A stretch of 64,000 nucleotides of DNA, taken from NCBI GenBank assembly GCA_040755035.1, contig JBFMBU010000313.1, forward strand, positions 3,763 to 67,762, read 5' to 3'. Origin of the DNA: Thermodesulfobacteriota bacterium. GTDB taxonomy: Bacteria > Desulfobacterota > RBG-13-43-22. A program made the position numbers and the translations under genes. The notes beneath the pieces were generated by a model. That model did no database searches. It was not told where the DNA came from and saw nothing but the letters and a program-made list of their open reading frames with translations. Below are positions 1,292 to 56,181 of the stretch, piece by piece (within the stretch, counting starts at the first letter, position 1; each line of letters opens with the position of its first letter).

Positions 1292-2431
1292 TTATTTGGG
1301 GCCGAAATAGGGATCTTTGGTTTTGGCCGGTTGGGTTGGAGACGGCGACGGTTTTTTGGTTTTGGTTTTGGTGCCGGATTTTTCCTCGGCTGCCCCCTCC
1401 GTGGTGACAGTTGTGGCCGTCGTTTCCTGGGCCCTTTTTTCTTCCAACCTCTTCAACTCGGCCCGAATCTCTTCCAGCCTTTTTTCTTCAGCCCGGATTT
1501 CCTCCTGTCTTTTCTCCTCAGCCTTTTTTTCTTCCAGACGTTTGATCTCCTCGCGCAACTCTTCCAAACGTTTCTCTTCGGCCCGGATTTCCTCCTGACG
1601 CTTCTCAGCCGCTCTTTTCTCTAAAAGCCGTTTTTCTTCCAAGCGTTTTTCCTCGGCCCGGATTTCCTCCAATCGTTTCGCTTCCAGCTTCTTTTGTTCG
1701 GCTTGGATTTCCGCGTTTTTTTTCTCTTCTGATGGTTTGTCTCCGGCCGGTTTCTCCTGGACGGATTTATCTTTTTTCTCTTTTTCCGGTTTTACCTCGG
1801 TTGTTTTTTCTTTAGCTGTTTTTTCTTCGGACGGGGCCGGTTTGCTTTCTTCCACCAGGGCGGCCAGGAAAGCCGAATCGGCCAGGATTTGTTCCGTCAC
1901 CCTGACCAGGGACTCACTGATGCTTTCCTGATAGTTCACCTCAGAAAGGCTACGTCCCCGATTCGTTCCCACACCGGAATAAACGTGCTTGAACAGAACG
2001 GTCCCCGCTTTATCCTTGATCTCAAGAGCCAGCCGGGTTTCGGAATTATAGGTCCGCCCTTCGATAGTCCAGAACTCCATGACGGAACCGGATAGTAATC
2101 GATCCGCGGTGTCAGCGTTATTGGCCAGTCGTAAACCTATGGCATTAAATTCATTTTTTAAAACCGTCAGGATGAAATTCCTGACCTGACGATCGTCCGA
2201 GGTTACTATACGAATGAATTTATTTTTTTCTTCCTGATTTTCGCCGATTTCCCTGGGGCGTTTTCGAGTATCCCGGATCCCTTCCCAAAAGATTCTGATG
2301 GGCGGAACTTTTTTTATTTGAACATTGACGGAGCTTTTGGGCTTATACTGAAGCTGGATCACCTTTTCATTGGCCTCGGCCAACAGGGGAATCAGCAGGA
2401 AAAAAAGGCAAATAAATAGATATCGTTTCAA
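1292..2431 (-). CDS. Secreted/periplasmic protein with three tandem ~30-aa KE-rich coiled-coil repeats (EEIRAEEKRLEE...) and a Thr/Pro/Lys-rich C-terminal tail
   Basis: Long ORF. The likely start is a TTG at 2431 with a perfect AGGAGG RBS 7 nt upstream, giving MKRYLFICLFFLLIPLLAEA as signal peptide. The track start at 2494 is also TTG. The DNA shows ~90-nt tandem repeats at 1440-1720. Confidence 0.7.
   Translation of the reverse strand: MKRYLFICLFFLLIPLLAEANEKVIQLQYKPKSSVNVQIKKVPPIRIFWEGIRDTRKRPREIGENQEEKNKFIRIVTSDDRQVRNFILTVLKNEFNAIGLRLANNADTADRLLSGSVMEFWTIEGRTYNSETRLALEIKDKAGTVLFKHVYSGVGTNRGRSLSEVNYQESISESLVRVTEQILADSAFLAALVEESKPAPSEEKTAKEKTTEVKPEKEKKDKSVQEKPAGDKPSEEKKNAEIQAEQKKLEAKRLEEIRAEEKRLEEKRLLEKRAAEKRQEEIRAEEKRLEELREEIKRLEEKKAEEKRQEEIRAEEKRLEEIRAELKRLEEKRAQETTATTVTTEGAAEEKSGTKTKTKKPSPSPTQPAKTKDPYFGPK
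1440..1720 (-). repeat. Intragenic ~90-bp (36-nt sub-periodic) tandem repeats encoding an EEKRLEE/EEIRAEE coiled-coil array
   Basis: Repeated ttcctccagncgttt / ttcttcagcccggatttcctcc blocks are visible on '+'. They encode three ~30-aa repeats in the '-' frame. Confidence 0.7.
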
Positions 2432-9156: not shown

Positions 9157-10041
9157 TCAGCGTTCAATGTCCGGGGTTCGGCGTTGATCCGGTCGGGGAC
9201 GATAACGGTTGATGAACCATTTCATTTGACGGCAGATCCCGCGGATCAGACGTACTTCGTTGCTGTACAGTCCGATGCGGGAAAAAAAACGACGCAAGCT
9301 CATCATCCACAGGTCAGGATTTTGCTTATCCAGGAAATCCATTAGCTGCAGGACCTCGGACAGGTGGCCGTACATACCCTCCAGTTCGAAAGAAGAGGCC
9401 AATGAATTTCGGATTTCCAATTTCTGATTTCGGGCTGGAAAAATCGGAGAATCGATAGCCGAAAGATCTAAAGTTTCAGGGGTGGGGGGGATGGGTTCTT
9501 TTCCATTCCGAAATCTGAAATCCGCAATCGGCAATGATGGGTCCTGCTGGGCCAGGAGGACCTCATAACAAAGGATCAATACCGCCTGGGCCAGATTAAG
9601 GGAACCGGGCCGGGCTGTGGGAATGGTGACCGTGGCCTGACAAAAGCGTAATTCTTCATTGGTCAATCCTCGGTTTTCCGGACCGAAGAGCAGGGCGATA
9701 CGGTTTTTCCTTCCCAGGGAGGCAATTTTTTGAGCGGCCCGGACCGGATCAATGACTTCCTTGCGCTGCCCCCCCAGGCGGGCTGTAGTTCCCACGACGT
9801 ACTGAAAAGGGGATAGGGCCTCGGCCAGGTCGGAGTGGGTCTCCATAGTCTCCAAAAGTCCCCGGGCCACATGGGTGGAGAGTTTGGTCATCCTTTCCCA
9901 GTCGGTGTCCTCGGGATTGACCAAAAGGATGCGGGAAAACCCCATATTCCAGGCCGCTCGGGCCGTAGCCCCGATGTTTTCGGCAAAACGAGGACGGTGC
10001 AGAACCACCGAGATATGATCGAATCTAACCGGTTCCTTCAT
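9157..10041 (-). CDS. TrmH/SpoU-family RNA 2'-O-methyltransferase (TrmJ-like) with a ~60-aa C-terminal extension
   Basis: SPOUT motifs HISVVLHRPRFAENIGATARAA, LLFGPENRGLTNEE and NLAQAVLILCYE. Confidence 0.8.
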   Translation of the reverse strand: MKEPVRFDHISVVLHRPRFAENIGATARAAWNMGFSRILLVNPEDTDWERMTKLSTHVARGLLETMETHSDLAEALSPFQYVVGTTARLGGQRKEVIDPVRAAQKIASLGRKNRIALLFGPENRGLTNEELRFCQATVTIPTARPGSLNLAQAVLILCYEVLLAQQDPSLPIADFRFRNGKEPIPPTPETLDLSAIDSPIFPARNQKLEIRNSLASSFELEGMYGHLSEVLQLMDFLDKQNPDLWMMSLRRFFSRIGLYSNEVRLIRGICRQMKWFINRYRPRPDQRRTPDIER

Positions 10042-13299: not shown

Positions 13300-14765
13300 T
13301 GGGCTTCAAACCGATCATACTCTGGACGGATGGATTGCTGGCCTTGCTGCTATTGGCAGGGCTGACCTATGGTTGGGCAGTAAAACACCGGGAACACCTG
13401 CGAACACCATGGCAGCGGGTGATCCGGAACCGGAGCGGGTTGGTTTCTATTTTGATTTTGTCCGTTTTCCTGTTTGTCGGTTTAGTGGACAGCCTCCATT
13501 TCCGCCCGGAGTTGAAGTCCTCCAAGGGCCGGGAAAAAGCCTATGCCGTGGAAGTGTTGAGTCTGCTGGACGTTTTGCTGGCCCCCCTGCGGCTGCACAC
13601 GGAAAAGACGTATTCCGCACCCTTGGCCGCCAGGTTATTCTCCAAAGAAACGGTGGAAATGCCGGACGGGCGTCAAACACGGATTTTCCCACGTCTGCTT
13701 TACGGAGGGGCCCATCTTCAAGAGCCGGAAAGGGAAAAAAACGGAGATATCGTGAAAAGGACCTTTTGGGGTCTGTTGACGGCCGTGGTGATTTGGGGAA
13801 TGCTGGCCTTTTTTTTCCTGATACTCCTGGCCCGGCGGAGCCAGGAACGATTATCCGTCAAGGCCAGGAGTCTGTTCCGGGGTAAGGAGGAGGTCCCCTG
13901 GCAGGCCGCTTTGTGGACCCTTTTGGTACTGCTTTTGTTCGGGATTCCTATCGCCTTTCTGAGTATCAAGTACCATGTGTTGGGGACCGATAAAGTGGGG
14001 CAGGATGTTTTATTTCTGGCCCTGAAGAGCATTCGCACCGGATTGATCATCGGCACCCTGACCACACTGGTGATGCTGCCCTTTGCCGTGTTGCTGGGAA
14101 TCATGGCCGGATATTTCCGGGGTTGGGTGGATGATGCCATTCAGTATATATACACCACACTGAACTCCATTCCGGCGGTGCTGTTGATCGCCGCGGCCGT
14201 GCTGATGACCCAGGTCTTTATGGATAGGCATGTCGACTGGTTTGAAACGGTCAGCGCCAGGGCTGATTTTCGTCTCCTGTTTCTTTGCCTCATCCTGGGG
14301 GTGACCAGTTGGACCGGCCTTTGCCGTCTGCTGCGTGGTGAGGCACTGAAATTGCGGGAGATGGAGTATATCCAGGCCGCTCAGGCTTTGGGGGTTTCCG
14401 AATTCCGAATCATCCTCCGGCATATCCTGCCTAATGTCATGCATATTATTTTGATTGCCGTGGTGATGGACTTTTCCGGCCTGGTCTTGGCCGAGGCCGT
14501 ATTGTCCTATGTCGGCGTGGGTGTGGATCCCTCCATGATCAGTTTCGGGACCATGATCAACAGCGCCCGGATGGAAATGGCCAGGGAGCCGATGGTCTGG
14601 TGGTCCCTGGCCGCCGCTTTCGGTTTTATGTTTTTGCTGGTACTCTCCGCCAACCTCTTTTCCGATACGGTGCGGGATGCCTTTGATCCCAGAATTCAAA
14701 CCCGCTCTATCCGTCTCCTCTTCCGGCGGCAAGCCCTTTTAGAAAAAAAAGAGGACCGGCCATGA
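13299..14765 (+). CDS. ABC transporter permease (DppC/OppC-like) with a ~190-aa N-terminal membrane extension
   Basis: GTG start overlapping the upstream stop. Contains the C-terminal BPD_transp_1 core with EAAQALGVSEFRIILRHILPN. Confidence 0.8.
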   Translation: MGFKPIILWTDGLLALLLLAGLTYGWAVKHREHLRTPWQRVIRNRSGLVSILILSVFLFVGLVDSLHFRPELKSSKGREKAYAVEVLSLLDVLLAPLRLHTEKTYSAPLAARLFSKETVEMPDGRQTRIFPRLLYGGAHLQEPEREKNGDIVKRTFWGLLTAVVIWGMLAFFFLILLARRSQERLSVKARSLFRGKEEVPWQAALWTLLVLLLFGIPIAFLSIKYHVLGTDKVGQDVLFLALKSIRTGLIIGTLTTLVMLPFAVLLGIMAGYFRGWVDDAIQYIYTTLNSIPAVLLIAAAVLMTQVFMDRHVDWFETVSARADFRLLFLCLILGVTSWTGLCRLLRGEALKLREMEYIQAAQALGVSEFRIILRHILPNVMHIILIAVVMDFSGLVLAEAVLSYVGVGVDPSMISFGTMINSARMEMAREPMVWWSLAAAFGFMFLLVLSANLFSDTVRDAFDPRIQTRSIRLLFRRQALLEKKEDRP

Positions 14766-16879
14766 AAGCGCCCTTACTGGAGGTTGAGGGTCTTAATACC
14801 CGGCTCTTCACCGCTGATGGGGTGGTCAGGGCCGTAGATGGTCTATCCTTTTCTCTTCAGACCGGGGAAACCTTCGCCCTTCTGGGGGAATCCGGTTGCG
14901 GCAAGACCATGGCCGCTTTGTCTATCATGAGGCTGTTACCGGAAACCGGGATGATCACCGGCGGCCGGGTCCGGTTGAACGGGACCGATCTTTTGCGGCT
15001 GCCGGAGATGGAAATGCGGAAGGTTAGGGGTAGAAGAATCGGCATGATTTTTCAAGAGCCGATGTTGAGTCTGAATCCGGTGGTAACCGTAGGCAGCCAG
15101 GTGACGGAGGTCCTGCTGCATCATTTCTCTTTGTCCAGGGGGGAGGCCGAAGGACGCGCCTTGGAGATGTTGGAAGCCGTTGGCCTTCCTGAAGCACGAC
15201 GACGAAAGGATTATTATCCCTTTCAGTTCTCCGGCGGTATGAAACAAAGGGTCATGGCCGCCATGGCCCTGGCCTGCGGACCGGATCTATTGATTGCCGA
15301 TGAACCGACGACAGCCCTGGATGTGACCATTCAAGCCCAGGTGCTTGATCTGCTCAGAAATTTGCAAGCCCAAAAAGGCATGGCTGTTTTGCTGATCACC
15401 CATGATTTAGGTGTAGTAGCGGAAATGGCCCAGCGGGTGGCGGTCATGTATGCCGGTGAGGTGGTGGAAACCGCGGACCGGGCCCTTTTTTTCACCCGAC
15501 CCTCTCATCCCTATTCTCAGAAGCTGTTTGCATCTATGCCCTTAAGGGATAAGCGGGGGCAGGCCTTGTCGGTTATCCAGGGTAATGTGCCCTCTCTGGC
15601 CCGGGAGTTTCCCGGCTGCCGGTTTGCCGAACGTTGCGAAAAGAGCCGCGGTCAATGTTTTCGGGAACCCCCCCCCTGGATTGAAACCGCTCCCGGTCAG
15701 GGGGTCCGCTGCCATCTTTTCGCTCTTGGAGCAGAGGGAAATAGTTCGGCCTTCAGCGTTCAGTGTTCAGCGTTCGGCGTAAAACCTGAAAACCAAAGGC
15801 TTGCGGGAGAACTTTTTCAAGACGAGCGAGATACGGGATACGAGATACGAGATACACCGATTGAAGGCGGGCACTGTACTGGAGAGCAGGGCCGGGAAGA
15901 ACCGCCTACCCTCCTGCTGGTGGAAGGATTGAAGGTCTACTTTCCTATCCGCAAGGGTTTGCTGAAAAAAACCGTAGGCCAGGTAAAAGCCGTCGACGGG
16001 GTCTCTCTCTCCATCCGAACCGGTCGGACCCTGGCTTTAGTCGGCGAATCCGGTTGTGGAAAGACTACGCTGGGGAAGGGAATTTTGCGGCTTATTCCCA
16101 TGGCCGGAGGGTCGGTATCCTTTGAAGGAAGGGAGTTGGCATTGCTCGGGGCCGAACGGCTGCGGTCTCTGCGGAAGTCATTTCAGATTATTTTTCAGGA
16201 CCCCTATGCCTCATTAAACCCCCGCCTGCGGGTGGTGGAGATCATCGAGGAGGGCATGAGTGCCTTAGGGGTGGGAAAAACCCGGGAAGAACGCCTGTAC
16301 CGGATCGACCGGCTGTTGGAGGAAGTAGGGTTGTCCCCGGAAATCAAATTCCGTTATCCCCACGAATTTTCCGGAGGGCAGCGTCAGCGCATTGCCATAG
16401 CCCGGGCCCTTTCCGTGGAGCCCAAACTGATTGTCTGCGACGAACCGACCAGCGCCCTGGACATCTCCGTCCAGGCTCAAATCCTGAATCTGCTCAAAGA
16501 CCTCCAGGAAAAACACAAACTGGGCTACCTGTTTATCACCCATAATATATCAGTGGTGGAGTATCTGGCCCATGAAGTGGCGGTCATGTACTTAGGCCGG
16601 GTGGTGGAACAAGGTACGGTCGATGAGCTCTTGGATCATCCCGGTCATCCCTACACCCGGGCCCTGCTTTCGGCCGTACCGACCATAGATCCGAAAACCC
16701 GGAGGGAGGTTATACGCCTGGTGGGGGACCTGCCTTCCCCGGCCGCACCTCCTGACGGCTGCTTTTTCCATCCCCGCTGCCCGGAGGTGATGGCCGTCTG
16801 CCGGGATCGTTATCCGGGAAAAAGCATGATAAGCGCAACCCGTTATGTCCACTGTCATCTTTATGGGGAGCGGGAATAA
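14762..16879 (+). CDS. ABC transporter ATP-binding protein, fused double ATPase (DppD-like plus DppF-like domains). The inter-domain linker carries heptamer tandem repeats.
   Basis: Two sets of Walker A (GESGCGKT), signature (FSGGMKQR / FSGGQRQR) and Walker B motifs, plus oligopeptide C-terminal domains. The ATGA start overlaps the upstream gene. Confidence 0.85.
15745..15779 (+). repeat. Heptanucleotide tandem array, 5 units (TTCGGCC TTCAGCG TTCAGTG TTCAGCG TTCGGCG), in frame inside the ATPase linker
   Basis: Direct reading. It is the reverse complement of the CGCCGAA units at 52931-52958. Confidence 0.85.
15827..15854 (+). repeat. Heptanucleotide tandem array CGAGATA/CGGGATA, 4 units, inside the ATPase linker
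   Basis: Direct reading. An inverted copy array lies at 16882-16916. Confidence 0.85.
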
Positions 16880-16881
16880 TT

Positions 16882-16916
16882 TCTCGTATCTCGTATCTCG
16901 TTGCTCGTATCTCGTC
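16882..16916 (+). repeat. Heptanucleotide tandem array TCTCGTA, 5 units (reverse complement of CGAGATA), 3 nt after the ATPase stop codon
   Basis: Direct reading. It forms a long-range inverted repeat with 15827-15854, ~1.05 kb away. Confidence 0.85.
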
Positions 16917-17003
16917 TAAACTCTCTTCTGATGATCTCAAAAAAAGTTAAAATCACTAAGTGGTCATTTCGACTGGAAGGAGAAATCTTGAAATCTCGCA
17001 TCC

Positions 17004-17043
17004 CTGAACCCTTGAATCCTCGAATCCTTGGACCCTTTTGACC
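17004..17043 (+). repeat. Octanucleotide tandem array, 5 degenerate units (consensus TTGAATCC)
   Basis: ctgaaccc ttgaatcc tcgaatcc ttggaccc ttttgacc, in the convergent intergenic region. Confidence 0.6.
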
Positions 17044-42582: not shown

Positions 42583-42614
42583 AGAAATCCATCCGGAGCA
42601 AAGACCAAGATGAT

Positions 42615-42669
42615 CAGTACAGAATCAGTACAGAATCAGTACAAAATCAGTACAAAATCAGGACAGAAT
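42615..42669. repeat. 11-bp tandem array, 5 units (CAGTACAGAAT x2, CAGTACAAAAT x2, CAGGACAGAAT), directly 3' of the aconitase-family gene
   Basis: Direct reading. Confidence 0.85.
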
Positions 42670-44618
42670 CAACCCCGTGCCTTTTGATTTCTCTTAAGGT
42701 AAGACAGTAGACCACCGGCCAGGAAAATTTCCATTTTTTCCGTGGGGACCAAGGCTTTTAAAAGGAAATTTTTCTTTTGGGTCAGGTTAAAGGCCTGGAT
42801 CTCTTTTCCCTGTTTGAGGGCTTTCAAGACCTGATGAAACTCCAACCAATCGTCTTGCTGCAGGGATAAATAATCCTTCGGTTCTAAAAAAACCAGAGGA
42901 AGGATCCCGTAATTGATCAGATTACTTAGATGGATTCTGGCAAAAGACTTGGCTACCACAGCACGGATGCCTAAAAACATAGGGGCCAGGACCGCATGTT
43001 CTCTTGAAGAACCCTGTCCATAATTTTCACCTCCGATAATGACGCCCCCCTGGGCCTGAGCGGCCCTTTCGGTAAAAGTTGGGTCCAGACGGGAGAAGGT
43101 AAAACGGGAGATGGCCGGGATGTTTGATCGAAACGGCAGAACCTCGGATCCTCCAGGCAGGATGTCGTCGGTAGAGATGTGGTCACCGGTTTTAATCAAG
43201 ACCCGGGCCTGGAAGGAAGCCGATAAAGGTTTACTAAGCGGGAGGGGCTTGATATTCGGCCCGCGGACAATTTTTATCCCTTGCGGATTGGGGGTGGGGG
43301 GGTGAAGCAGAGAGGCGGACTGGCTTCGGGGAGGGAGATTGGAAACCTTTGGCAGGGAAATTTTTTCCTTAAAAGGGTCGACCACTTCTCCCTTGAGGGC
43401 GATTAAAGCGGCGGTCAGCGGATTACATAAATAAACCCGGGCGGAGAGGGTTCCGCTCCGACCCCTGAAGTTTCGATTATAGGTCCTGAAGGAAATTCCA
43501 TTTTCCGGAGGCGCTCCCCCCATACCAATGCAGGGACCACATGCGGATTCCAGGAGACGGGCGCCGGAAGCCAGGAGTGCCCCGAGATCCCCTTTTTCAG
43601 CCAGGGCCTTCATGACTTCTCTGGAACCGGGATTGATTAAAAGGCTTAGGCCGGGGTGGATGGGTTTCCCGGCCAGGAGGGTGGCTACGGACTTCAGAGA
43701 AGCATAGGAGGAATTGGAACAACTTCCGATACAGACCTGGTGGACCTTCAATCCGATAATCTTTTTCAGTGGTACAATATTATCCGGGCTGAAAGGACAG
43801 GCGACCAACGGTTCCAGTTGATCGAGATTTATTTCTAAATGATCCTCATAGACCGCTTCCGGGTCAGGAGACAGCTTTATCCAATCTCTCGCCCGTCCTT
43901 GGGTCTCTAAAAAGGACCGGGTTATTTCATCGCTGGGGAACAGGGAGGTCGTGGCCCCCAGTTCAGCCCCCAGGTTACAAATAGTAGCCCTTTCGGTGGC
44001 CGAAAGGGTCTTAAGGGCCGGGCCTTGAAACTCATGTACCCATCCCACTCCTCCACGAACCGTCAGGCGACGGAGCAGTTCCAAAGCCACGTCCATGGCC
44101 GTAACCCAGGGTCTCTTCAGATGGCCGATAAGCCGAATACGCCTTACCTTGGGTCGAACAAGAAAATAGGGGTAACCGGCCATAGCCGCGGCGATGTCCA
44201 ATCCCCCGCAGCCCATAGCCAGCATGCCCAGACCGCCGGCGGTAGGGGTATGGCTGTCCGATCCCAATAGGACTTGACCTGGTCTGGCAAACCGTTCCAG
44301 ATGTACCTGATGGCAGATGCCGTTTCCGGCCGGGGAGAAGTAGGCCCCAAAGCGGGCGGCCGAGCTTTGCAGATAGAGATGATCATCCGGATTGCGGGAA
44401 TCCGCCTGAAGCGTGTTGTGGTCTACATAGGAAACCGCCAGGGGGACCTGTATGCGTTTTTTTTTGATGGCTTCAAACTGCAGATAGACCATGGTCCCGG
44501 TGGCGTCCTGAGTCAAGACCTGGTCTATTTTTAGGGGAATGGTTTCCCCGTTTGTTTTCTGGCCTCTGCTCACATGGTGATTGACAATTTTTTGAAAAAG
44601 CGTCTCCTGCATAACCAC
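42669..44618 (-). CDS. Aconitase-family hydro-lyase with fused large (LeuC-like) and swivel (LeuD-like) domains
   Basis: GSDSHT, the Cys ligand region GSCSNSS (one of the conserved Fe-S cluster ligands), and a C-terminal swivel domain. 649 aa. Confidence 0.7.
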   Translation of the reverse strand: MVMQETLFQKIVNHHVSRGQKTNGETIPLKIDQVLTQDATGTMVYLQFEAIKKKRIQVPLAVSYVDHNTLQADSRNPDDHLYLQSSAARFGAYFSPAGNGICHQVHLERFARPGQVLLGSDSHTPTAGGLGMLAMGCGGLDIAAAMAGYPYFLVRPKVRRIRLIGHLKRPWVTAMDVALELLRRLTVRGGVGWVHEFQGPALKTLSATERATICNLGAELGATTSLFPSDEITRSFLETQGRARDWIKLSPDPEAVYEDHLEINLDQLEPLVACPFSPDNIVPLKKIIGLKVHQVCIGSCSNSSYASLKSVATLLAGKPIHPGLSLLINPGSREVMKALAEKGDLGALLASGARLLESACGPCIGMGGAPPENGISFRTYNRNFRGRSGTLSARVYLCNPLTAALIALKGEVVDPFKEKISLPKVSNLPPRSQSASLLHPPTPNPQGIKIVRGPNIKPLPLSKPLSASFQARVLIKTGDHISTDDILPGGSEVLPFRSNIPAISRFTFSRLDPTFTERAAQAQGGVIIGGENYGQGSSREHAVLAPMFLGIRAVVAKSFARIHLSNLINYGILPLVFLEPKDYLSLQQDDWLEFHQVLKALKQGKEIQAFNLTQKKNFLLKALVPTEKMEIFLAGGLLSYLKRNQKARG

Positions 44619-49049: not shown

Positions 49050-50573
49050 ATGATTTCCGAAATACCCGTTTTCAAACCCGAACAACTTCCCAGGATCCCC
49101 TTGACCCTGGAAGGAATTTCTTCCCGGTTTATAAGGGAAAATCTGGTTATCCCCCTTGAATATAAAAATAATATTTTAAAAGTGGCTATGGGCTGCCCGG
49201 AAGATCGGGAGACGGTCGATGCCCTGGAAGTAGCCACTTCGGCTGAAGTCGTGGTTTATGCCGGTGATCCCTCCCTGATTTCCGATTATATCGCCAAATT
49301 TTACGGCCAGGAATCGCAGAATATCAACCGGATCATTGAGGACATCGGCACCGATTCCTTGGAATTCCTGAAGGAAGAGGAAGAGGACATCGGCCATTTA
49401 AAAGACCTGGCTTCGGAGGCCCCGATTATCAAGCTGGTCAATATGGTCATTTCCCGGGCCGTTGAAAACCGGGCCAGTGATATTCACATTGAGCCCTTTG
49501 AGGATGAATTGAAGGTGCGCTACCGCATAGACGGCGTGCTTCACGATATTGAATCCCTGCCCAAGAATCTCCAGGCCGCCATCCTCTCCCGGATTAAAAT
49601 CATGGCCAAACTCAATATCGCCGAAAAGAGGCTCCCCCAGGACGGCCGGATCAAATTGAAGGTCATGGAAAAGGAAATCGATCTCAGGGTATCCACCATA
49701 CCCGTTCTATACGGTGAGGGGGTGGTGATGAGGATCCTGCAGAAGGAAGGGATCACCATCGACCTCAACCTCCTGGGGTTTGCGCCCCGAACCCTATCCC
49801 TTTTTGATCAGCTTATAACAAAATCCAACGGAATTATCCTGGTCACCGGGCCCACCGGCAGCGGGAAGACCACCACCCTTTATGGGGCACTGGACAAAAT
49901 CAATTCGCCGGACAAAAAGATCATTACCGTTGAGGACCCCATAGAATATCAATTGAAAGGGATCAACCAAATCCAGGTTAAACCACAAATCGGCTTGAAT
50001 TTTGCCGGCACCCTTCGTCATATTGTCCGACATGATCCGGATATTATCATGATCGGCGAAATCCGCGATTTGGAAACGGCCGAGATCGCTATCCAGTCGG
50101 CCTTGACCGGACATCTGGTTTTTTCTACCTTACATACCAATGATGCTCCCAGCGCCATCACCCGTTTGCTGGATATGGGGGTAGAAAGTTTTCTCCTTTC
50201 TTCCACCATTCGAGGCGTTCTGGCCCAGCGTTTGGTGCGGCTCATCTGTCCGGTTTGTAAAACGGTCGACCCCGCCCCGGCGGTGCCGGAGGAGTGGGTT
50301 CATCTGCAAGTGGGGGATATGGGGACTTTATATCGAGGGGCCGGCTGCGAAAGATGTGCCGGAACCGGGTATTGGGGGCGAATCGGTATCTTTGAACTGT
50401 TTCTGATCGACGATCTCATACGACGAATGATCCTGCAGGGTGCCGATGTGATTCAAATCCGGGAGGCGGCCAGAAAAAACGGGATGAAAACTTTGCTGGA
50501 AGACGGCCTGGAAAAGGTGAAGGCCTCCCTGACCACGCTGCCTGAAGTCTTAAGGGTCACACAAGAGGTCTAA
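49050..50573 (+). CDS. gspE: Type II secretion system ATPase GspE
   Basis: Short N1/N2 domain, GPTGSGKTTT, His box and the tetracysteine CPVC...CERC motif. It heads a gspF-pseudopilin-gspK-L-M cluster. Confidence 0.85.
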   Translation: MISEIPVFKPEQLPRIPLTLEGISSRFIRENLVIPLEYKNNILKVAMGCPEDRETVDALEVATSAEVVVYAGDPSLISDYIAKFYGQESQNINRIIEDIGTDSLEFLKEEEEDIGHLKDLASEAPIIKLVNMVISRAVENRASDIHIEPFEDELKVRYRIDGVLHDIESLPKNLQAAILSRIKIMAKLNIAEKRLPQDGRIKLKVMEKEIDLRVSTIPVLYGEGVVMRILQKEGITIDLNLLGFAPRTLSLFDQLITKSNGIILVTGPTGSGKTTTLYGALDKINSPDKKIITVEDPIEYQLKGINQIQVKPQIGLNFAGTLRHIVRHDPDIIMIGEIRDLETAEIAIQSALTGHLVFSTLHTNDAPSAITRLLDMGVESFLLSSTIRGVLAQRLVRLICPVCKTVDPAPAVPEEWVHLQVGDMGTLYRGAGCERCAGTGYWGRIGIFELFLIDDLIRRMILQGADVIQIREAARKNGMKTLLEDGLEKVKASLTTLPEVLRVTQEV

Positions 50574-51766
50574 TGGCCGTATTTTCTTACCGGGGTACCA
50601 ATGGGGAGGGTGCAGTCCTGGAAGGGGCCATTGAAGCCCCTGATGAACAGGCAGCCGCCGAACAACTGAAAAATGCCCATATCATCCCCATTGCCATCGC
50701 TCTTCCGGGAAAAAGTCTTAAGACCCGCCTGGGGCGACGTACCACGGCCGGGGACCTCCTCAACTTTACTACCGAATTATCGGCCCTGCTTGAGGCCGGA
50801 TTACCCATAGACCGGAGCCTCAACATCCTTTCCGGTCTGGCGGAAAAAAAAGAAAAACAAATCCTCCTTCAGACCATTCTGCGTTCCATTCGTGAGGGGA
50901 GTTCTTTTTCTGATGCCCTGCAGAAACACCCCCGGGTATTCTCCCGCTTATATATTAATATGGTCAGGGCCGGTGAAGCCGGGGGTGTCCTGCCCACGGT
51001 GCTGGAAAAATTAACCGAATTTCTGGAAACGACCCAGGAACTTAAAGAGCAGGTTTTATCCTCAATGATTTACCCGATTATACTGCTTTCCACCGGCGGG
51101 ATCTCCATTCTCATATTATTAACCTACGTTTTGCCGAAATTTTCCACTATCTTCGCCGAATTGGGTGGGGCCATGCCCCTTTCCACTCAGTTGCTGCTCT
51201 CCTTCAGCCGTGGTCTACAATCCTATTGGTGGGTCGTTTTGCCGGTGTTTTTTGCCTCCTGGATCTTATTCAGGACCTATATAAAATCCGATACCGGCCG
51301 CTACCGCTGGGACGGATTGAAATTAAAATTGATGAAAGAGATCCTCCAGAAGCTGGAAACCGCTCGGTTTTGCCGGACCCTGGGGACCCTGCTACGAAGC
51401 GGGGTTCCCTTATTGCAGGCCTTGAAAAATTCGCGAGACGTGATCGGCAATCAGGTCATCGCCCTGGCTCTGGAAGAGGTTTCCAAAGGGGTAAAAGAAG
51501 GGAAAGGCATGGCCCTGCCTCTGTCAGGGACGGGGGTCTTTCCGCCTCTGGCCTTATCCATGATCAAGGTCGGGGAAGAGACCGGGCAGTTGGATGTCAT
51601 GTTATTGAAAGTGGCCGCAGCTTACGAGAAGAGCCTTCGGGTTTCGATCAAGCGTTTTATCAGTTTTCTGGAGCCGGCGCTGATCCTGGGTATGGGATTG
51701 ATTATCGGGTTTATTGTCATGTCTATGCTGCTGGCTGTTTTCAGTATTACCGATCTGCCTTTTTAG
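50573..51766 (+). CDS. gspF: Type II secretion system inner-membrane platform protein GspF
   Basis: Two T2SSF repeats and three TM segments. The start overlaps the gspE stop. Confidence 0.85.
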   Translation: MAVFSYRGTNGEGAVLEGAIEAPDEQAAAEQLKNAHIIPIAIALPGKSLKTRLGRRTTAGDLLNFTTELSALLEAGLPIDRSLNILSGLAEKKEKQILLQTILRSIREGSSFSDALQKHPRVFSRLYINMVRAGEAGGVLPTVLEKLTEFLETTQELKEQVLSSMIYPIILLSTGGISILILLTYVLPKFSTIFAELGGAMPLSTQLLLSFSRGLQSYWWVVLPVFFASWILFRTYIKSDTGRYRWDGLKLKLMKEILQKLETARFCRTLGTLLRSGVPLLQALKNSRDVIGNQVIALALEEVSKGVKEGKGMALPLSGTGVFPPLALSMIKVGEETGQLDVMLLKVAAAYEKSLRVSIKRFISFLEPALILGMGLIIGFIVMSMLLAVFSITDLPF

Positions 51767-51784: not shown

Positions 51785-52303
51785 GTGCGACGGATCATTA
51801 ACGGTTATCGGGAAATGCCGTTACTCAAAGCCGAGCGATTGGCGAGGAACGGTTATAGTAACAACCCGTCGGGTTTCACGCTCTTGGAAATGATTATTGT
51901 TTTATTGTTGAGCCTGTTGATCCTGGGGGTGGTTTCGGTTTCTCTGGCCGGATTAATTTCTTCAACCAGACTCCTTGGCGCGGCCAGGGAATTTCAGGCT
52001 TCTTTAAGACAGGCCCGTGATTTGGCCGCCATTCACGGGGAAGAGCAGGAGTGGCGGGTCGATTTGGAATCCGGGGTCTATGGAATCGAAGGCCGAAGTC
52101 AGCGAAAAATTCCTCCGCGAGTGGGATTGATCATTGTCGTTTCCACAGGTGAAGAGATCCGCAGCGGGAAATATCTCCTGCGTTTCCAACCCAATCGGGG
52201 ATCGTCCGGCGAGCTTTTCCGATTGACCGACAAAAATAGGATGGTCACTATCGCCCTGGATCCGGTGATAGGGGCTGTGATCTACCGGGAGGTACATTCT
52301 TAA
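51785..52303 (+). CDS. gspH: Pseudopilin with prepilin-type N-terminal cleavage/methylation domain (GspH-like by size and position)
   Basis: G|FTLLEMIIVLLLSLLILG class III signal, ~170 aa. Confidence 0.65.
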   Translation: MRRIINGYREMPLLKAERLARNGYSNNPSGFTLLEMIIVLLLSLLILGVVSVSLAGLISSTRLLGAAREFQASLRQARDLAAIHGEEQEWRVDLESGVYGIEGRSQRKIPPRVGLIIVVSTGEEIRSGKYLLRFQPNRGSSGELFRLTDKNRMVTIALDPVIGAVIYREVHS

Positions 52304-52435
52304 GCGGATGGAATCCCGCGAGCGATGGGATTAATGTGGGAGGTTATATTGAAGCACAAGAAATCTCCCTGAATTGACTTGACCCTTTTTTATAAAACCT
52401 TGACCGCAGCACAAATTAAAAAAAGGTCCACGAAC

Positions 52436-52852
52436 ATGGCGGCAAACCTAAAGGATGCACAGAGCCTTTTTAAAAAAAAATCCGGGTTTACCCTGCTGGA
52501 GGTGCTGGTGGCTTTGGTTCTCTTGGGGATGGCCGTTACGGCGATGTTACAGCTTTTTTCGGCCAACCTGAACGCCATATCCAAATCAGAGGGTTATGTG
52601 GCCTGTTCCCTGGAGGCGCAATCCAAAATGCGGGAGGTCCTCGAGGAAAAAGAACTTTCCGAGAGTTCCTGGAGCGGCATTACGGCCAACGGCTATCGCT
52701 ATCAGGTTACCGTTGCTGAACTCTTAAAAGAAAGGACGGACAGCCTTCCGCTGAAACTGTTGGAGGTGGAAGTCAGGCTCTATTGGAACCTGGGGGTCCG
52801 GGAAAAGACCTTATCTCTGAACACCATGAAAATGGTGGAAAAAAAGATATGA
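52436..52852 (+). CDS. gspI: Pseudopilin (GspI-like by size and position)
   Basis: KKKSG|FTLLEVLVALVLLGMAV. The start is chosen at MAANL; the track ORF begins at 52379. Confidence 0.6.
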   Translation: MAANLKDAQSLFKKKSGFTLLEVLVALVLLGMAVTAMLQLFSANLNAISKSEGYVACSLEAQSKMREVLEEKELSESSWSGITANGYRYQVTVAELLKERTDSLPLKLLEVEVRLYWNLGVREKTLSLNTMKMVEKKI

Positions 52853-53598
52853 AAAACCAGATGATAGGCATAGCTTTTATAGGCGATGCCTGTAAAACCC
52901 CTCTAAAAATAGAAGAGGGTTATCTCTTATCGCCGAACGCCGAACGCCGAAGGCCGAACGTTTTTTTAGGGAAGGCCCCCGGTTTCACCCTGCTGGAATT
53001 GCTGATTTCCATAACCATTGTCGGGGTGCTGCTGTTTATCCTCATGTCTGTTTTGCGGCTGGGTTATCGGTCGGTGGAGGCCGGAGAAAAAAAGATTGAA
53101 TCCCTGGAACGCTTCCGGGCCTCTTTTAACCTGATTGAGGCCCAGATCCAGTCCGAGATCCCCTTGTCCTTTTTGGAAAACGGAGAGAGAAAATACTATT
53201 TTAAAGGGCAATCCGGGTTACTGGAGTTTTCTACCAACCATTCCCTTTGGGAAGGGGAGAGCGGTTTTGTGCTGGTCTCCTACCGGGTGGAGGAGGAGGG
53301 GCAGGGGAAATGGTCCTTGTGGGCCGCGGAAGGCAAAATAGGGCAATCACCCTTGAGGGAGGTAAAGCTTCTGGGGGCTTTTGACAAGATCTCCTTTTCC
53401 TATTTCTATCAGGACCCGACCGAAGAAAGCGGGCAATGGCTGGAGGAATGGACGGAGACGGCTTTTCGGCCGAAAAAGATCAAACTGGATTTGGTTGTTG
53501 ACGGTAAAGAGCTCTCCATCCTATCGCCCTTAAAAAGCCAGGGGGGCCTGACCGGACTCCAGACCAGGCCGATTTCCAGAAGCTCAAGCGGGGGATGA
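52849..53598 (+). CDS. gspJ: Pseudopilin (GspJ-like) with an unusually long ~45-aa leader that contains a heptamer repeat array
   Basis: ...GKAPG|FTLLELLISITIVGVLL. The only in-frame ATGs (52849, 52861) lie upstream of the CGCCGAA array. The ATGA start overlaps gspI. Confidence 0.6.
   Translation: MKNQMIGIAFIGDACKTPLKIEEGYLLSPNAERRRPNVFLGKAPGFTLLELLISITIVGVLLFILMSVLRLGYRSVEAGEKKIESLERFRASFNLIEAQIQSEIPLSFLENGERKYYFKGQSGLLEFSTNHSLWEGESGFVLVSYRVEEEGQGKWSLWAAEGKIGQSPLREVKLLGAFDKISFSYFYQDPTEESGQWLEEWTETAFRPKKIKLDLVVDGKELSILSPLKSQGGLTGLQTRPISRSSSGG
52931..52958 (+). repeat. Heptanucleotide tandem array CGCCGAA x3 plus GGCCGAA, followed by a T7 homopolymer, inside the pseudopilin leader coding region
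   Basis: Direct reading. It is the same heptamer family, in reverse complement, as 15745-15779. Confidence 0.85.
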
Positions 53599-54698
53599 TG
53601 AACGACCTTGACTTAGAATCTCTTGTCGGGAAAAGGCCTTCTCCGGAAGGGAGAGACCTTTTTCAACGACCGACGTCCTCCCGGGGATCGGCCCCGGGAT
53701 ATTTCTTCAGGGGGAGAAAAATCGGGCAGGAGGGGATCGCCCTATTGACCGTGGTCTGGGTCTTAATGGTTTTGATGGTCATTGTTTTTTCCTTTTCGTT
53801 CATGGCCAGGACCGAAACCCTTTCTTCCCTGGCCTTTAAGGAAGGGATGGAAAAACGGTTTCTGGCGGAGGCCGGCGTGGAACGAGGGATCATGGAGCTG
53901 TTTTTCCGAAAAACCAACCTCAATGCGTCGTTGCCAGAAGACCTGGCCGTCTGGAAAATTGACGGCCGCCCCTATGAGGGAAGGGTGGGGGAAGGGAATT
54001 ACCGGGTCAGAATTTTTGACGAATCGGGAAAACTGGATTTAAATACAGCACCGGAGCGGTTGTTGCGCGCCCTGATCCGATCCCTTGTTTCGCAAGAAAC
54101 AGAGGCGGATTCGATTATGGATTCTATTCAGGACTGGCGGGACGGTGATGATTTACATCGACTGCTCGGTGCCGAATCCGACTATTATCAGTCCCTGCCT
54201 CAACCGTATAAGGCCAAAAACGCTGACTTCGAGACCCTGGAGGAACTGTCGTTGGTCAAAGGCGTGACCAAGGAACTCCTTTATGGAGAAAATAACCGCA
54301 AAGGACTGATGGATTATTTGACGGTCCAGGGAAGGACCAACCGGATCAATGTCAACGCCGCTCCCCGGGAGGTCCTGCTGATCATTCCGGGAATGACGGC
54401 GGCAATGGTCGAAGAAATCCTGGCCTTCCGGGAAAAACAAGAGATTAAAAATTTACAAGAGATCGGCGGTTCTGTGGTCGGCAGTCAGTCTCTGATCCAG
54501 CCCTATGTCACCACCGCACAAGGAACGGCCTTTGCCATAGAGTCCTTGGGTTTCAAAGAAAAGGCCCGGTCCGGATACGCGGTCAAAGCCGTCGTTTCCC
54601 TGACCGCAAACAACCAGTATAACACCCTTTATTTTAAGACAGCGGTTACAATCAGAGAAAATGGAAGCACCCGGGAACAATCAACCAACGGAAGTTAA
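53595..54698 (+). CDS. gspK: Type II secretion minor pseudopilin GspK
   Basis: N-terminal hydrophobic helix lacking Glu5 (GIALLTVVWVLMVLMVIVF), ~367 aa, and a C-terminal helix-hairpin-helix-like region. Confidence 0.7.
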   Translation: MMNDLDLESLVGKRPSPEGRDLFQRPTSSRGSAPGYFFRGRKIGQEGIALLTVVWVLMVLMVIVFSFSFMARTETLSSLAFKEGMEKRFLAEAGVERGIMELFFRKTNLNASLPEDLAVWKIDGRPYEGRVGEGNYRVRIFDESGKLDLNTAPERLLRALIRSLVSQETEADSIMDSIQDWRDGDDLHRLLGAESDYYQSLPQPYKAKNADFETLEELSLVKGVTKELLYGENNRKGLMDYLTVQGRTNRINVNAAPREVLLIIPGMTAAMVEEILAFREKQEIKNLQEIGGSVVGSQSLIQPYVTTAQGTAFAIESLGFKEKARSGYAVKAVVSLTANNQYNTLYFKTAVTIRENGSTREQSTNGS

Positions 54699-56181
54699 TC
54701 AGGGGACCTCTGGGAAACCTAAAGGAAAGGCCCTGGGCCGGCTGTTTTTATTGAGTCTGGCCGACGACAGGATTTGGTATAAAAAAACCCTTTGCCTGGC
54801 CATAGAAAAGGGAGGGGTCTCGGTATCCTTGGGCAGGCGTTTCTTTTCCAAGATAAGAATCAGCGGACTCAAATATTATCCCTGCCCCGGCAGTGAATAC
54901 CCTCCGCCGGAATTTGTGACTTCCTGTTTAGGATTGGCGACCACCGAGCTTCAGGCCGGTGGAGTTCCGGTGGTCCTGAGTCTTCCCAAATCCTGGGCGG
55001 TTATCCGAACCGCGGACTACCCGTCGACCGTATTGGAAAATCTCTCCAATGTCCTGGGGTTTGAATTGGATCGGATAACTCCTTTTAATCCGGAAACCGC
55101 TTATTTTGATTTCCATACAATCAAGGAAGATGCCTCCCGCATAACGGTTTTGGTGGCGGCCGTCAGAATGGACGTGGCTGATCCCTATCTTAAAGTCCTG
55201 CGGGAAAAAGGGATAACGGTCGAGCAGGTAACCATCAACCTTTTGGGGTTTGGGACCCTGAGCCGGTTCCTGCAAAAACAAGATCCGGTCATTTTTCTGA
55301 ATATTGAAGAAAACCAATATGAGGGCCTTCTGTACTTGCCCGAATCCCTATTGAAAGTTTTTTCAGGCCCTTTCCCCAACGAAGACCGGAACGGGGCCTT
55401 GAGCCGGATTGAAAAGGATTTGGAATCCATACTGGCTGAAGCGGGGGGAGTTGGCAAAATAAAAGAAGTCTATTGTCGGATAAAGGAAGGAGATCCCTTT
55501 CTCAAGGAACGGATACCTACCCGTATGCGCTGGCCGGTTCATTTTTTGGGGGGATCGGATCCGGCCTTCAATCAAATCCTCGGTCTTAAACCCGGGGAAG
55601 GCCCCATCCCCTGCAGCGCCCTGGGGGGACTGCTGGAGGCTTTATGGACCAAGGCCCTGGGCCTCAATCTTTTACGGAAAGGCCGACGTAAAAAAATAAG
55701 GCCCCCGCTGGTCCTGACCCTTCTGCTGCTTATCCTTTTCGGGATTATGATCGGGGTTTATTGGCTGGCCCCAATGGAAGCGGAGAAGAAGCGATTGCAG
55801 GACATTGAAAAACAAATCGCCGCCCAAAAAGGGGAAATAAAAAAAATTGAAACCTTAAAAAAAGAGGTGGATTCCGTTTTTGAAGAAATCGAAAAGATAC
55901 ATTCCTTCAAGACCACGAACCCCTTGAGCTTGAATCTCCTGAAGGAACTTACCCTGATCCTGCCCAAAAATTCCTGGTTGACACGGGTGAGGATTTCGGA
56001 ATCGCAGGTCAATATCGAGGGCTATTCCCCCTCAGCCACACCGTTGATTCCCAGACTGGATGCCTCAAGATATTTCAGAAAGGTGGAGTTCTCCGCCCCG
56101 ACTTTTCGGGACCCAAGGCAGAATATGGACCGTTTTCAGATCAAAATGGAAATTGAAGGCCGTGAGGATGAAAAAAAATAG
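54661..56181 (+). CDS. gspL: GspL-like assembly protein: PilM-type actin-like cytoplasmic domain fused to a TM helix plus a PilN-like periplasmic domain
   Basis: The N-terminal 330 aa are PilM/GspL-cyto-like. A TM segment LVLTLLLLILFGIMIGVYWL is followed by a coiled coil and a PilN-like domain. Confidence 0.65.
   Translation: MEAPGNNQPTEVNQGTSGKPKGKALGRLFLLSLADDRIWYKKTLCLAIEKGGVSVSLGRRFFSKIRISGLKYYPCPGSEYPPPEFVTSCLGLATTELQAGGVPVVLSLPKSWAVIRTADYPSTVLENLSNVLGFELDRITPFNPETAYFDFHTIKEDASRITVLVAAVRMDVADPYLKVLREKGITVEQVTINLLGFGTLSRFLQKQDPVIFLNIEENQYEGLLYLPESLLKVFSGPFPNEDRNGALSRIEKDLESILAEAGGVGKIKEVYCRIKEGDPFLKERIPTRMRWPVHFLGGSDPAFNQILGLKPGEGPIPCSALGGLLEALWTKALGLNLLRKGRRKKIRPPLVLTLLLLILFGIMIGVYWLAPMEAEKKRLQDIEKQIAAQKGEIKKIETLKKEVDSVFEEIEKIHSFKTTNPLSLNLLKELTLILPKNSWLTRVRISESQVNIEGYSPSATPLIPRLDASRYFRKVEFSAPTFRDPRQNMDRFQIKMEIEGREDEKK

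What the first reader, a model, noticed from the sequence alone, without database searches (positions are those of the whole stretch)
52849..52965. The same heptamer family (CGCCGAA x4) plus a T7 tract inside the leader of a pseudopilin gene: candidate phase-variable pseudopilin
The GspJ-like pseudopilin can only start at ATGs upstream of the array. The array and an adjacent T7 homopolymer therefore sit inside an unusually long ~45-aa leader (MKNQMIGIAFIGDACKTPLKIEEGYLLSPNAERRRPNVFLGKAPG|FTLLE). Heptamer or homopolymer slippage here would switch the gene off or on. This is a classic contingency-locus layout, but in a T2SS minor pseudopilin, where it is not a described feature. The array is the reverse complement of the one in the ABC ATPase linker at 15745, and the flanking TATCTC matches the CGAGATA family. 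It looks like a compressed copy of the same composite element.
Basis: partly seen in the sequence, partly recalled or inferred. Interest (0 to 1): 0.75.

Follow-up and report, generated by a model that had tools for sequence, protein, structure and literature searches.

The report
Heptamer repeat inside long pseudopilin leader
A short 7-base tandem repeat really does lie inside an unusually long, cleaved-off leader of a secretion-system pseudopilin gene, but comparison with relatives shows a stable passenger repeat in a tolerant stretch of sequence, not a proven on/off switch.

Summary
CGCCGAA x4.3 (52931-52960) and a T7 run (52961-52967) lie inside the GspJ-like pseudopilin ORF (52849-53598). 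No ATG, GTG or TTG lies between them and the G45|FTLLE cleavage site, so the leader must be 41-45 aa; the described range is 6-26 aa.

The contingency-locus reading is not supported.
- Orthologues at 56-77% identity keep four units at the same position and in the same frame. They differ by point substitutions.
- The T-run is a conserved Gly/Val-Phe-Leu codon block, and A/T runs of 7 or more occur 91 times in the window.
- Arrays of the same kind sit in frame in linkers of two housekeeping genes of this window.
- About 26 array-bearing prepilin leaders from other genomes are almost all in the ON frame, and one was identical in four assemblies.
- The true heptanucleotide switch neuO shows 3-53 units and 66% OFF genomes.

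Best explanation: an old gspI-gspJ spacer of about 135 nt carrying heptamer repeats became translated. The proximal start (ATG or GTG at -10 in some orthologues) is CCG here, so translation starts at the conserved ATGA overlap and the leader is presumably cleaved off.

One point stays unexplained: four-to-six-unit heptamer arrays cluster at prepilin leaders across phyla.

The parts
52379..52852 (+). GspI-like pseudopilin gene. Its stop TGA (52850-52852) overlaps the next gene's ATG.
   Evidence: ORF list; Pfam N_methyl; the C-terminal coding block ...ATGGTGGAAAAA... is conserved in all orthologue junctions.
52849..52851 (+). Start codon of the GspJ-like gene, in an ATGA overlap that implies translational coupling. 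An SD-like GGTGGA lies about 9 nt upstream.
   Evidence: Sequence. The same 4-base overlap is called in L129, L130, L131, L133, L137 and the P0007 contig.
52849..52983 (+). Leader-coding region of 45 codons ending in G45. It is a translated former gspI-gspJ spacer.
   Evidence: There is no in-frame start after 52861. Window versus L129: nucleotide identity 0.78/0.78/0.76 at codon positions 1/2/3, with no frame-breaking indel. That equals the identity of a 545-nt intergenic region (0.77). The mature part shows 0.83/0.92/0.65.
52866..52891 (+). Imperfect hairpin (AGGCATAGC / GCGATGCCT) in the 5' half of the leader. It is not conserved in L129.
   Evidence: The RNA fold of 52835-52995 is not significant (z = -1.39).
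52920..52962 (+). Period-7 tract. TTATCTC and TTATCGC are followed by the core array CGCCGAA x3 + GGCCGAA (52931-52960).
   Evidence: Homologous four-unit arrays occur in L130 (CGCCGAA + CACCGAA x3) and L129 (decayed).
52961..52967 (+). T7 run within the codons GTT TTT TTA (Val-Phe-Leu). It is homologous to the conserved Gly-Phe-Leu of the proximal leader.
   Evidence: The run is T6 in L129, L130, L139 and L140, and T4 in L131 and L137.
52984..53598 (+). Mature GspJ-like pseudopilin (F+1 TLLE+5 ...), under purifying selection.
   Evidence: Pfam T2SSJ and N_methyl; 360 homologues; codon-position identity pattern against L129.
15744..15855 (+). Composite of a GTTCRGC x5 array (reverse complement of the leader array) and a CGAGATA x4 array. 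It lies in frame in the linker of a fused double ABC ATPase.
16882..16915 (+). TCTCGTA x5 array just after the ABC ATPase stop, inverted relative to 15827-15855.
9405..9535 (-). Inverted pair of heptamer arrays translated in frame, in the linker after the SpoU domain of a TrmJ-like methyltransferase (ORF 9157-10041, minus strand).

Best explanation
The array is an ordinary member of the heptanucleotide tandem-repeat class that is over-represented in this genome and its relatives. It lies in an old spacer of about 135 nt between gspI and gspJ.

In some orthologues that spacer is untranslated, and gspJ starts at a proximal ATG or GTG ten codons before the cleavage glycine (M-NGFLKRESG|F). In the window's lineage that codon is CCG. 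Translation therefore has to begin at the conserved ATG that overlaps the gspI stop (ATGA), and it reads through the whole spacer, repeat included. The result is a leader of 41-45 aa. The leader stays in the cytoplasm and is presumably removed by the prepilin peptidase, so its sequence hardly matters as long as the frame stays open.

What is shown: the anatomy, the loss of the proximal start, frame conservation, evolution of the leader at the rate of non-coding DNA, a stable unit number, and arrays of the same kind tolerated in frame in housekeeping genes.

What is inferred: use of ATG 52849, cleavage of a 45-aa leader, and selective neutrality of the array.
For: (1) Start and frame. The ATGA overlap and an open leader of 31-48 codons are conserved in L129, L130, L131, L133 and L137. 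L139 (GTG) and L140/L141 (ATG) have a start at -10, with in-frame stops or a frame offset upstream. The homologous codon in the window is CCG.

(2) No protein-type selection on the leader. Identity to L129 is flat across codon positions (0.78/0.78/0.76) and equals the intergenic identity of 0.77. The mature part shows 0.83/0.92/0.65.

(3) Stability. Four units sit at the same site in the window, L129 and L130. The differences are substitutions at about the background rate.

(4) The tract is short: three perfect units. The T7 is a conserved codon block and one of 91 A/T runs of 7 or more in the window.

(5) Permissive-site pattern. Three other heptamer arrays in the window are translated in frame in domain linkers. 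The SpoU linker insert is absent from 253-aa orthologues and is 20-70 aa long and variable in the close clade.

(6) Other prepilin leaders. All but one of 26 array-bearing leaders away from a contig end have an in-frame start at or upstream of the array, or between it and the cleavage site. One array is identical in four assemblies. Within clusters of at least 90% identity, leaders change by substitution or by wholesale replacement, not by unit number alone.
Against: No read-level or strain-level data exist for this species, so low-frequency slippage cannot be excluded. Three of the four units in L130 carry the same G-to-A difference (CACCGAA), which implies some concerted evolution, through slippage or conversion, at this very site.

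Period-7 and period-8 arrays (not multiples of 3) are eight-fold enriched in the 150 nt before prepilin cleavage sites, whereas period-6 arrays are not. Pure neutrality does not predict that. The modal size of 4-6 units also hints at a constraint.

Four-fold degenerate sites between the window and L129 are only 0.59 identical, so by that benchmark the leader (0.77) is more conserved than neutral. Cleavage of a leader this long has not been demonstrated.
Confidence: 0.6

Rival explanations
1. True contingency locus. Slipped-strand mispairing of the heptamer array (or the T7 run) switches the minor pseudopilin ON and OFF in the population, for example to escape pilus-dependent phages.
For: A non-triplet repeat lies between the only usable start and the mature protein, in a removable leader of a surface-machine gene, and any change of one or two units truncates the protein. 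Heptanucleotide switches in 5' coding regions do exist, as in neuO (PMC13001214). Heptamer arrays recur in prepilin leaders of many lineages. There are signs of unit homogenisation in L130.
Against: Only three units are perfect. The unit number is conserved across orthologues down to 56% identity. The sister L129 array has decayed by point mutation yet stays in frame. At most one candidate OFF allele occurs among about 26 array-bearing leaders, against 65.6% OFF and 3-53 units for neuO. One array is identical in four assemblies. Arrays of the same kind lie in housekeeping ORFs.
Confidence: 0.12
2. Functional cis-element. The four-unit heptamer array, alone or with the spacer, is a binding site or RNA/DNA signal that tunes translation or coupling of gspJ. 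It is comparable to the role proposed for TAACTGA repeats next to start codons in Beggiatoaceae.
For: The spacer length (about 45-48 codons) is kept even where it is untranslated (L140). The leader is more conserved than four-fold degenerate sites (0.77 against 0.59). Arrays cluster at gene 5' ends and have a narrow size range of 4-6 units. A precedent proposal exists in PMC4679880, and a modal size of four units is reported in Xanthomonas (PMC4692102).
Against: Unit sequences differ completely between loci and lineages, so no common ligand is evident. There is no significant RNA fold (z = -1.39), no Rfam match and no terminator or promoter at the array. The sister genome lets the array decay. 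Leader identity equals that of generic intergenic DNA.
Confidence: 0.15
3. The long leader is not translated. The gene uses an unrecognised non-canonical start near the cleavage site, or it is a decaying pseudogene.
For: Some orthologues do use a proximal start. Gene callers disagree on starts in this family.
Against: No ATG, GTG, TTG, CTG or ATH codon lies between the array and G45. The mature region is under clear purifying selection in both the window and L129, and both lack a proximal start. The 45-codon frame is open without indels in both, and in further orthologues.
Confidence: 0.05

Closest known systems
Over-represented heptanucleotide long SSRs of bacteria (cyanobacterial STRR repeats, Xanthomonas GGGAATC repeats; PMC4692102 and the 2007 survey it cites)
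   Same: The unit is 7 nt and the typical size is about four units. Many loci occur per genome, often as inverted pairs able to form hairpins, and the function is unknown. Period 7 dominates over other periods here too.
   Different: Those repeats are described mainly as intergenic. Here several are translated in frame (a leader and two linkers), the units are varied and not G-rich, and the host is an uncultured Thermodesulfobacteriota MAG.
TAACTGA direct repeats next to start codons in Beggiatoaceae, Cyanobacteria and Bacteroidetes (PMC4679880)
   Same: These are heptamer direct repeats of 2-6 copies at gene 5' ends, with no obvious link to gene function.
   Different: They have a single conserved unit and lie a few nucleotides upstream of the start codon. 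Here many different units are found, located downstream of the start codon and inside the ORF.
SSR contingency loci in 5' coding or signal-peptide regions, for example E. coli K1 neuO (AAGACTC)n (PMC13001214); Neisseria opa CTCTT repeats (my own knowledge)
   Same: A non-triplet repeat lies between the start codon and the mature protein of a surface-related gene, so the layout permits frame switching.
   Different: neuO has 3-53 units and 65.6% OFF genomes. Here there are four units, fixed across orthologues, with no OFF alleles seen.
Rickettsia palindromic elements inserted in frame into ORFs (review PMC10969869)
   Same: Dispersed repeat sequences are tolerated as in-frame insertions at permissive positions of unrelated housekeeping proteins.
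   Different: RPEs are palindromic, MITE-like elements of about 150 bp that encode a conserved peptide. Here the elements are short tandem arrays with variable units, and no transposition signature was found.
Class III (prepilin) signal peptides (PMC4471445)
   Same: A glycine sits at -1, Phe at +1 and Glu at +5, followed by a hydrophobic helix. The leader is hydrophilic with a net positive charge.
   Different: The described leader range is 6-26 aa. Here the minimum is 41 aa, among the five longest of 411 prepilin motifs examined.

Membership tests
SSR-mediated contingency (phase-variable) locus | A repeat with a unit length that is not a multiple of 3, inside the ORF or promoter, so that copy-number change alters expression | tested here: met
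   The array and T7 lie between the only start codons and G45. Changes of one or two units, or of one T, give stops after 37-85 codons.
SSR-mediated contingency (phase-variable) locus | A tract long and perfect enough to be hypermutable | tested here: inconclusive
   There are three perfect units plus one variant unit. neuO ranges from 3 to 53 units, most commonly 20. No rate data exist for four-unit heptamer tracts.
SSR-mediated contingency (phase-variable) locus | Unit-number polymorphism among related strains or within populations | tested here: not met
   Four units occur in the window, L129 and L130. Comparable arrays in other genomes are invariant in four assemblies and within clusters of at least 90% identity. 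No population data exist for this species itself.
SSR-mediated contingency (phase-variable) locus | Both ON and OFF alleles found in sequenced genomes | tested here: not met
   At most one candidate OFF state (L086) occurs among about 26 array-bearing prepilin leaders. N-terminally truncated gene calls turned out to be start-choice artefacts.
Heptanucleotide long-SSR / STRR-like repeat class | Tandem 7-nt units at several loci per genome, with period 7 over-represented relative to other periods | tested here: met
   The window has 5 period-7 arrays against 0 in shuffles, and other periods give at most 1. Across 1.1 Mb of related loci there are 58 period-7 arrays against 0-16 for each other period from 5 to 12.
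Heptanucleotide long-SSR / STRR-like repeat class | Predominantly intergenic location | tested here: not met
   Four of the five or six arrays in the window lie inside ORFs in frame.
In-frame selfish repeat (RPE-like) | Copies at unrelated loci that share sequence | tested here: met
   The leader array and the ABC-linker array share the unit and the irregular end GAAGGCCGAAC. Only two copies are seen in 64 kb.
In-frame selfish repeat (RPE-like) | Insert absent from orthologues (insertion polymorphism) and placed at permissive sites | tested here: met
   The SpoU linker insert is absent from 253-aa orthologues. GspJ orthologues exist with 9-10-aa leaders and shorter spacers. The positions are a leader and domain linkers.
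In-frame selfish repeat (RPE-like) | Transposition hallmarks (terminal inverted repeats, target-site duplication) | tested here: inconclusive
   Only a weak 16-nt direct repeat was found (13/16 matches, 52810 and 52926). One copy is conserved gspI coding sequence, so it is probably a chance match.
Prepilin (class III signal peptide) substrate | Gly at -1, a hydrophobic N-terminal helix, and Glu at +5 | tested here: met
   The sequence is ...KAPG|FTLLELLISITIVGVLLFILMSVL. Pfam N_methyl matches with E = 1.2e-5, and G45, F46 and E50 are invariant in the alignment.
Prepilin (class III signal peptide) substrate | A short hydrophilic leader (6-26 aa) | tested here: not met
   The minimum possible leader is 41 aa; the range is taken from PMC4471445.
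Prepilin (class III signal peptide) substrate | Cleavage by a prepilin peptidase | not testable with these tools
   This needs proteomics or a processing assay.

The most novel reading that the evidence does not exclude
Four-to-six-unit heptamer (and octamer) arrays placed directly after a translationally coupled ATG, and before the G|FTLLE cleavage site, are a recurrent and selected feature of minor (pseudo)pilin genes in uncultured anaerobes (Thermodesulfobacteriota, Nitrospirota and others). They would act either as low-rate slip-strand switches or as cis-signals that set minor-pilin stoichiometry, and the cleavable leader would have evolved as the place where such non-triplet repeats can be carried.
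Probability: 0.15. Interest if true: 0.75.

Novelty: new variant of a known kind. Interest (0 to 1): 0.38.

Why it matters
The finding shows that a layout resembling a contingency locus is not enough to call phase variation. Comparative stability of unit number separates a passenger repeat from a switch.

Two positive results are still worth recording.
- Some T2SS-like pseudopilins have obligatory leaders well beyond the 6-26 aa considered normal. These leaders were made by translating a former intergenic spacer after the proximal start codon was lost.
- Heptanucleotide repeats, whose over-representation in bacteria is long known but unexplained, are here often carried inside ORFs at permissive sites. 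They cluster at prepilin leaders in many uncultured lineages.

If that clustering proves to be selected, it would give the heptamer-repeat puzzle a testable function.

Tried and rejected
- **Terminator, promoter or structured RNA at the array.** No terminator or promoter hit lies at the site. The RNA fold gives z = -1.39. Rfam returns only a chance lncRNA hit at E = 0.46.
- **Collection scans for close orthologues.** Those relatives were recovered by exact-protein look-ups instead.
- **N-terminally truncated homologue calls as candidate OFF alleles.** P0013, P0031, P0034 and P0123 were checked. The DNA shows intact frames with usable starts, so these are gene-caller start choices.
- **Target-site duplication.** The 16-nt direct repeat at 52810 and 52926 was considered and rejected, because one copy is conserved gspI coding sequence.
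- **Leader more conserved than neutral.** This is true against four-fold degenerate sites (0.59) but not against a 545-nt intergenic region (0.77), so it was not used as evidence for function.
- **Population variation for this species.** Only one contig carries the protein, and the sister has two identical entries, so this was not testable.
- **-1 frameshifting at U UUU UUA.** The heptamer is in phase, but the -1 product is a meaningless 83-aa peptide (read from the T8 variant, which gives the same downstream frame). This was not pursued.

Full report
**1. The observation**

The window carries a T2SS-like operon on the + strand:
- gspE, 49050-50573
- gspF, 50573-51766
- two pseudopilin genes, 51785-52303 and 52379-52852
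- a GspJ-like gene, 52849-53598
- gspK, 53595-54698
- a PilM/N-like gene, 54661-56181

These assignments rest. Exact-protein hits label the source a Thermodesulfobacteriota MAG on a 68.6-kb contig.

Tandem Repeats Finder reports CGCCGAA x4.3 at 52931-52960. The period-7 register spans 52920-52962, and T7 lies at 52961-52967. The array is far above chance. There are 6 matches to a two-unit probe against 0.57 expected. The window has 5 period-7 arrays against 0 in shuffles, while other periods give at most 1.

The GspJ-like ATG overlaps the preceding stop as ATGA. No ATG, GTG, TTG or rarer start codon lies between the array and the cleavage glycine G45. The array is the reverse complement of the one in the ABC ATPase linker at 15745-15780, and both share the irregular end GAAGGCCGAAC.

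**2. Orthologues**

A search returned 360 homologues, mostly from Nitrospirota/Thermodesulfovibrionia and 'delta' MAGs. Their predicted leaders range from 2 to 77 aa, with a median of 30. Many of these leaders look like translated genomic repeats.

The nearest clade keeps a leader of 45-49 aa. DNA from exact-protein look-ups shows three things.
- The ATGA-overlap start is conserved in L129, L130, L131, L133 and L137.
- L130 (56% identity) has CGCCGAA + CACCGAA x3 followed by T6, at the same place and in the same frame.
- The sister L129 (77% identity) has a four-unit array decayed by point substitutions. L131, L134 and L137 keep only remnants such as AAGGCCGAACGTT.

So the array is old, its unit number has stayed at four, and it changes by substitution. 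There is a hint of unit homogenisation in L130.

**3. Why the leader is long**

L139 and L140/L141 have a proximal GVG/ATG start ten codons before the glycine (M-NGFLKRESG|F). Their upstream spacer is untranslated, because of in-frame stops or a frame offset. L135/L136 similarly start at -9.

The conserved 'NGF(L/I)K..SG' of these short leaders aligns with the window's 'PNVFLGKAPG'. The start-codon position is CCG in the window, L129 and L130. The spacer therefore became coding when the proximal start was lost, and the T7 run is simply the Gly/Val-Phe-Leu codon block (T4-T7 among orthologues).

Window versus L129 supports this. Leader identity is 0.78/0.78/0.76 at codon positions 1-3, with no frame-breaking indel. 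The mature part shows 0.83/0.92/0.65, and a 545-nt intergenic region shows 0.77. The leader evolves like non-coding DNA that must stay open.

Across 411 prepilin motifs in the fetched loci, the minimal possible leader has a median of 10 aa. Twenty-eight are 27 aa or longer, and the window (41 aa) is among the five longest. The described range is 6-26 aa (PMC4471445).

**4. Is it a switch?**

By construction, a change of one or two units, or of one T, truncates the protein. The signatures of a contingency locus are nevertheless missing.
- Only three units are perfect.
- The unit number is fixed across deep orthologues.
- T7 is one of 91 A/T runs of 7 or more in the window.
- Of 26 prepilin leaders in other genomes that carry a heptamer array, nearly all are in frame with a start at or before the array, and at most one candidate OFF state (L086) was found.
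- One such array (L025) is identical in four independent assemblies.
- Within clusters of at least 90% identity, leaders differ by substitution or wholesale replacement (for example 9 aa against 45 aa on nearly identical mature proteins), never by unit number alone.

A bona fide heptanucleotide switch, neuO, shows 3-53 units and 65.6% OFF genomes (PMC13001214).

**5. Arrays of the same kind in housekeeping genes**

An inverted heptamer pair at 9405-9535 is translated in frame just after the SpoU domain of a TrmJ-like methyltransferase. The composite at 15744-15855 lies between the two halves of a fused ABC ATPase. Distant SpoU orthologues (253 aa) lack the insert, while the close clade carries a heptamer-coded linker of 20-70 aa that varies in length.

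This pattern recalls Rickettsia palindromic elements in ORFs (PMC10969869). It argues for passenger repeats at permissive sites.

**6. What remains odd**

In 1.13 Mb of loci around pseudopilin genes, period 7 dominates: 58 arrays against 0-16 for each other period from 5 to 12. Twenty-six of the 58 lie within 150 nt upstream of a prepilin cleavage codon, a zone covering 5.5% of the sequence (p about 7e-18). Period 8 shows 8 of 13 in that zone, and period 6 shows 1 of 12.

Prepilin genes make up roughly a third of genes in these loci, by my own estimate of total gene number. Most other arrays also sit at the 5' ends of ORFs. The excess over 'any gene 5' end' is therefore modest and could not be tested properly here.

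Heptamer over-representation and a modal size of four units are known but unexplained (PMC4692102). Heptamer repeats next to start codons have been proposed as translational signals (PMC4679880). No RNA structure, Rfam family, promoter or terminator was found at the array.

**7. Verdict**

The repeat is real, the long leader is real, and the family assignment is correct. The contingency-locus interpretation is not supported.

The most likely explanation (confidence 0.6) is a stable passenger heptamer repeat in a spacer that became a translated, cleavable leader after start-codon migration. The rivals are a true switch (0.12), a cis-regulatory element (0.15), and an untranslated leader or pseudogene (0.05).

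Novelty: a new variant of known kinds, namely a heptanucleotide SSR, an in-frame tolerated repeat and a class III signal peptide. Interest is moderate to low for the stated claim, and somewhat higher for the cross-phylum association with prepilin leaders.

Noticed in passing
window 9405-9535 (minus-strand ORF 9157-10041): An inverted pair of heptamer arrays is translated in frame in the linker after the SpoU domain of a TrmJ-like RNA methyltransferase. Distant orthologues (253 aa) lack the insert. The close clade has a hypervariable heptamer-coded linker of 20-70 aa with motifs such as ISDCGLRN...NSEIRNPKSEI.
   Followed up: partly
window 15827-15855 and 16882-16915: The CGAGATA x4 and TCTCGTA x5 arrays are inverted copies about 1 kb apart. 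They bracket exactly the second ATPase half of the fused ABC ATPase (14762-16879). It is unclear whether this reflects a rearrangement or a cassette boundary.
   Followed up: no
window 16987-17037: A period-8 array (CTTGAATC-like, about 6 units) lies in the convergent intergenic region after the ABC ATPase. Period-8 arrays are also enriched in prepilin leaders of other loci (8 of 13).
   Followed up: partly
window 52472-52480: An A9 run (preceded by T5) encodes the KKK of the GspI-like leader ...LFKKKSG|F. It is longer than the flagged T7 and absent from the sister locus L129.
   Followed up: no
window 52960-52968: GTT TTT TTA contains the HIV-type slippery heptamer U UUU UUA in the correct phase for -1 frameshifting. 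The -1 product would be a meaningless 83-aa peptide, so this is probably coincidental.
   Followed up: partly
window 42613-42671: An 11-nt tandem repeat, ATCAGTACAGA x5.4 with 93% matches, is the highest-scoring short-period array in the window.
   Followed up: no
window 1443-1633: Nested 30-nt and 90-nt tandem repeats (72-76% matches) probably form a repetitive coding segment.
   Followed up: no
L025 5100-5160 and cluster members P0124-P0136: GspH-like pseudopilins at least 90% identical in the mature part carry three unrelated leaders, built from different heptamer arrays (AGACTTC-type against AAATTTC-type). This indicates wholesale leader replacement between close strains.
   Followed up: partly
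Homologue leaders P0038-P0113: Many orthologue leaders appear to be translations of other genome-wide repeats (motifs PPFTKGGLRGDYG, IRDC..LAMTN, VIASQRRSNL, LRQAQGDN). The gspI-gspJ junction therefore seems to be a general sink for dispersed repeats in Nitrospirota-type genomes.
   Followed up: no
L133 8538-8906 and L138 1477-1857: A gene of the 23S rRNA intervening-sequence protein family (PF05635) is inserted between gspF and the pseudopilin genes in two orthologous operons. It is absent from the window.
   Followed up: no
L130 437-481 and 520-560; L086 2200-2340: GspI-like leaders of 56-60 codons are encoded by an inverted pair of ATATCGA-type heptamer arrays (NIEYRISNVEC...FGVRHSIFEF). 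In L086 no in-frame start codon was found, which makes it the only candidate OFF or fused state seen.
   Followed up: no
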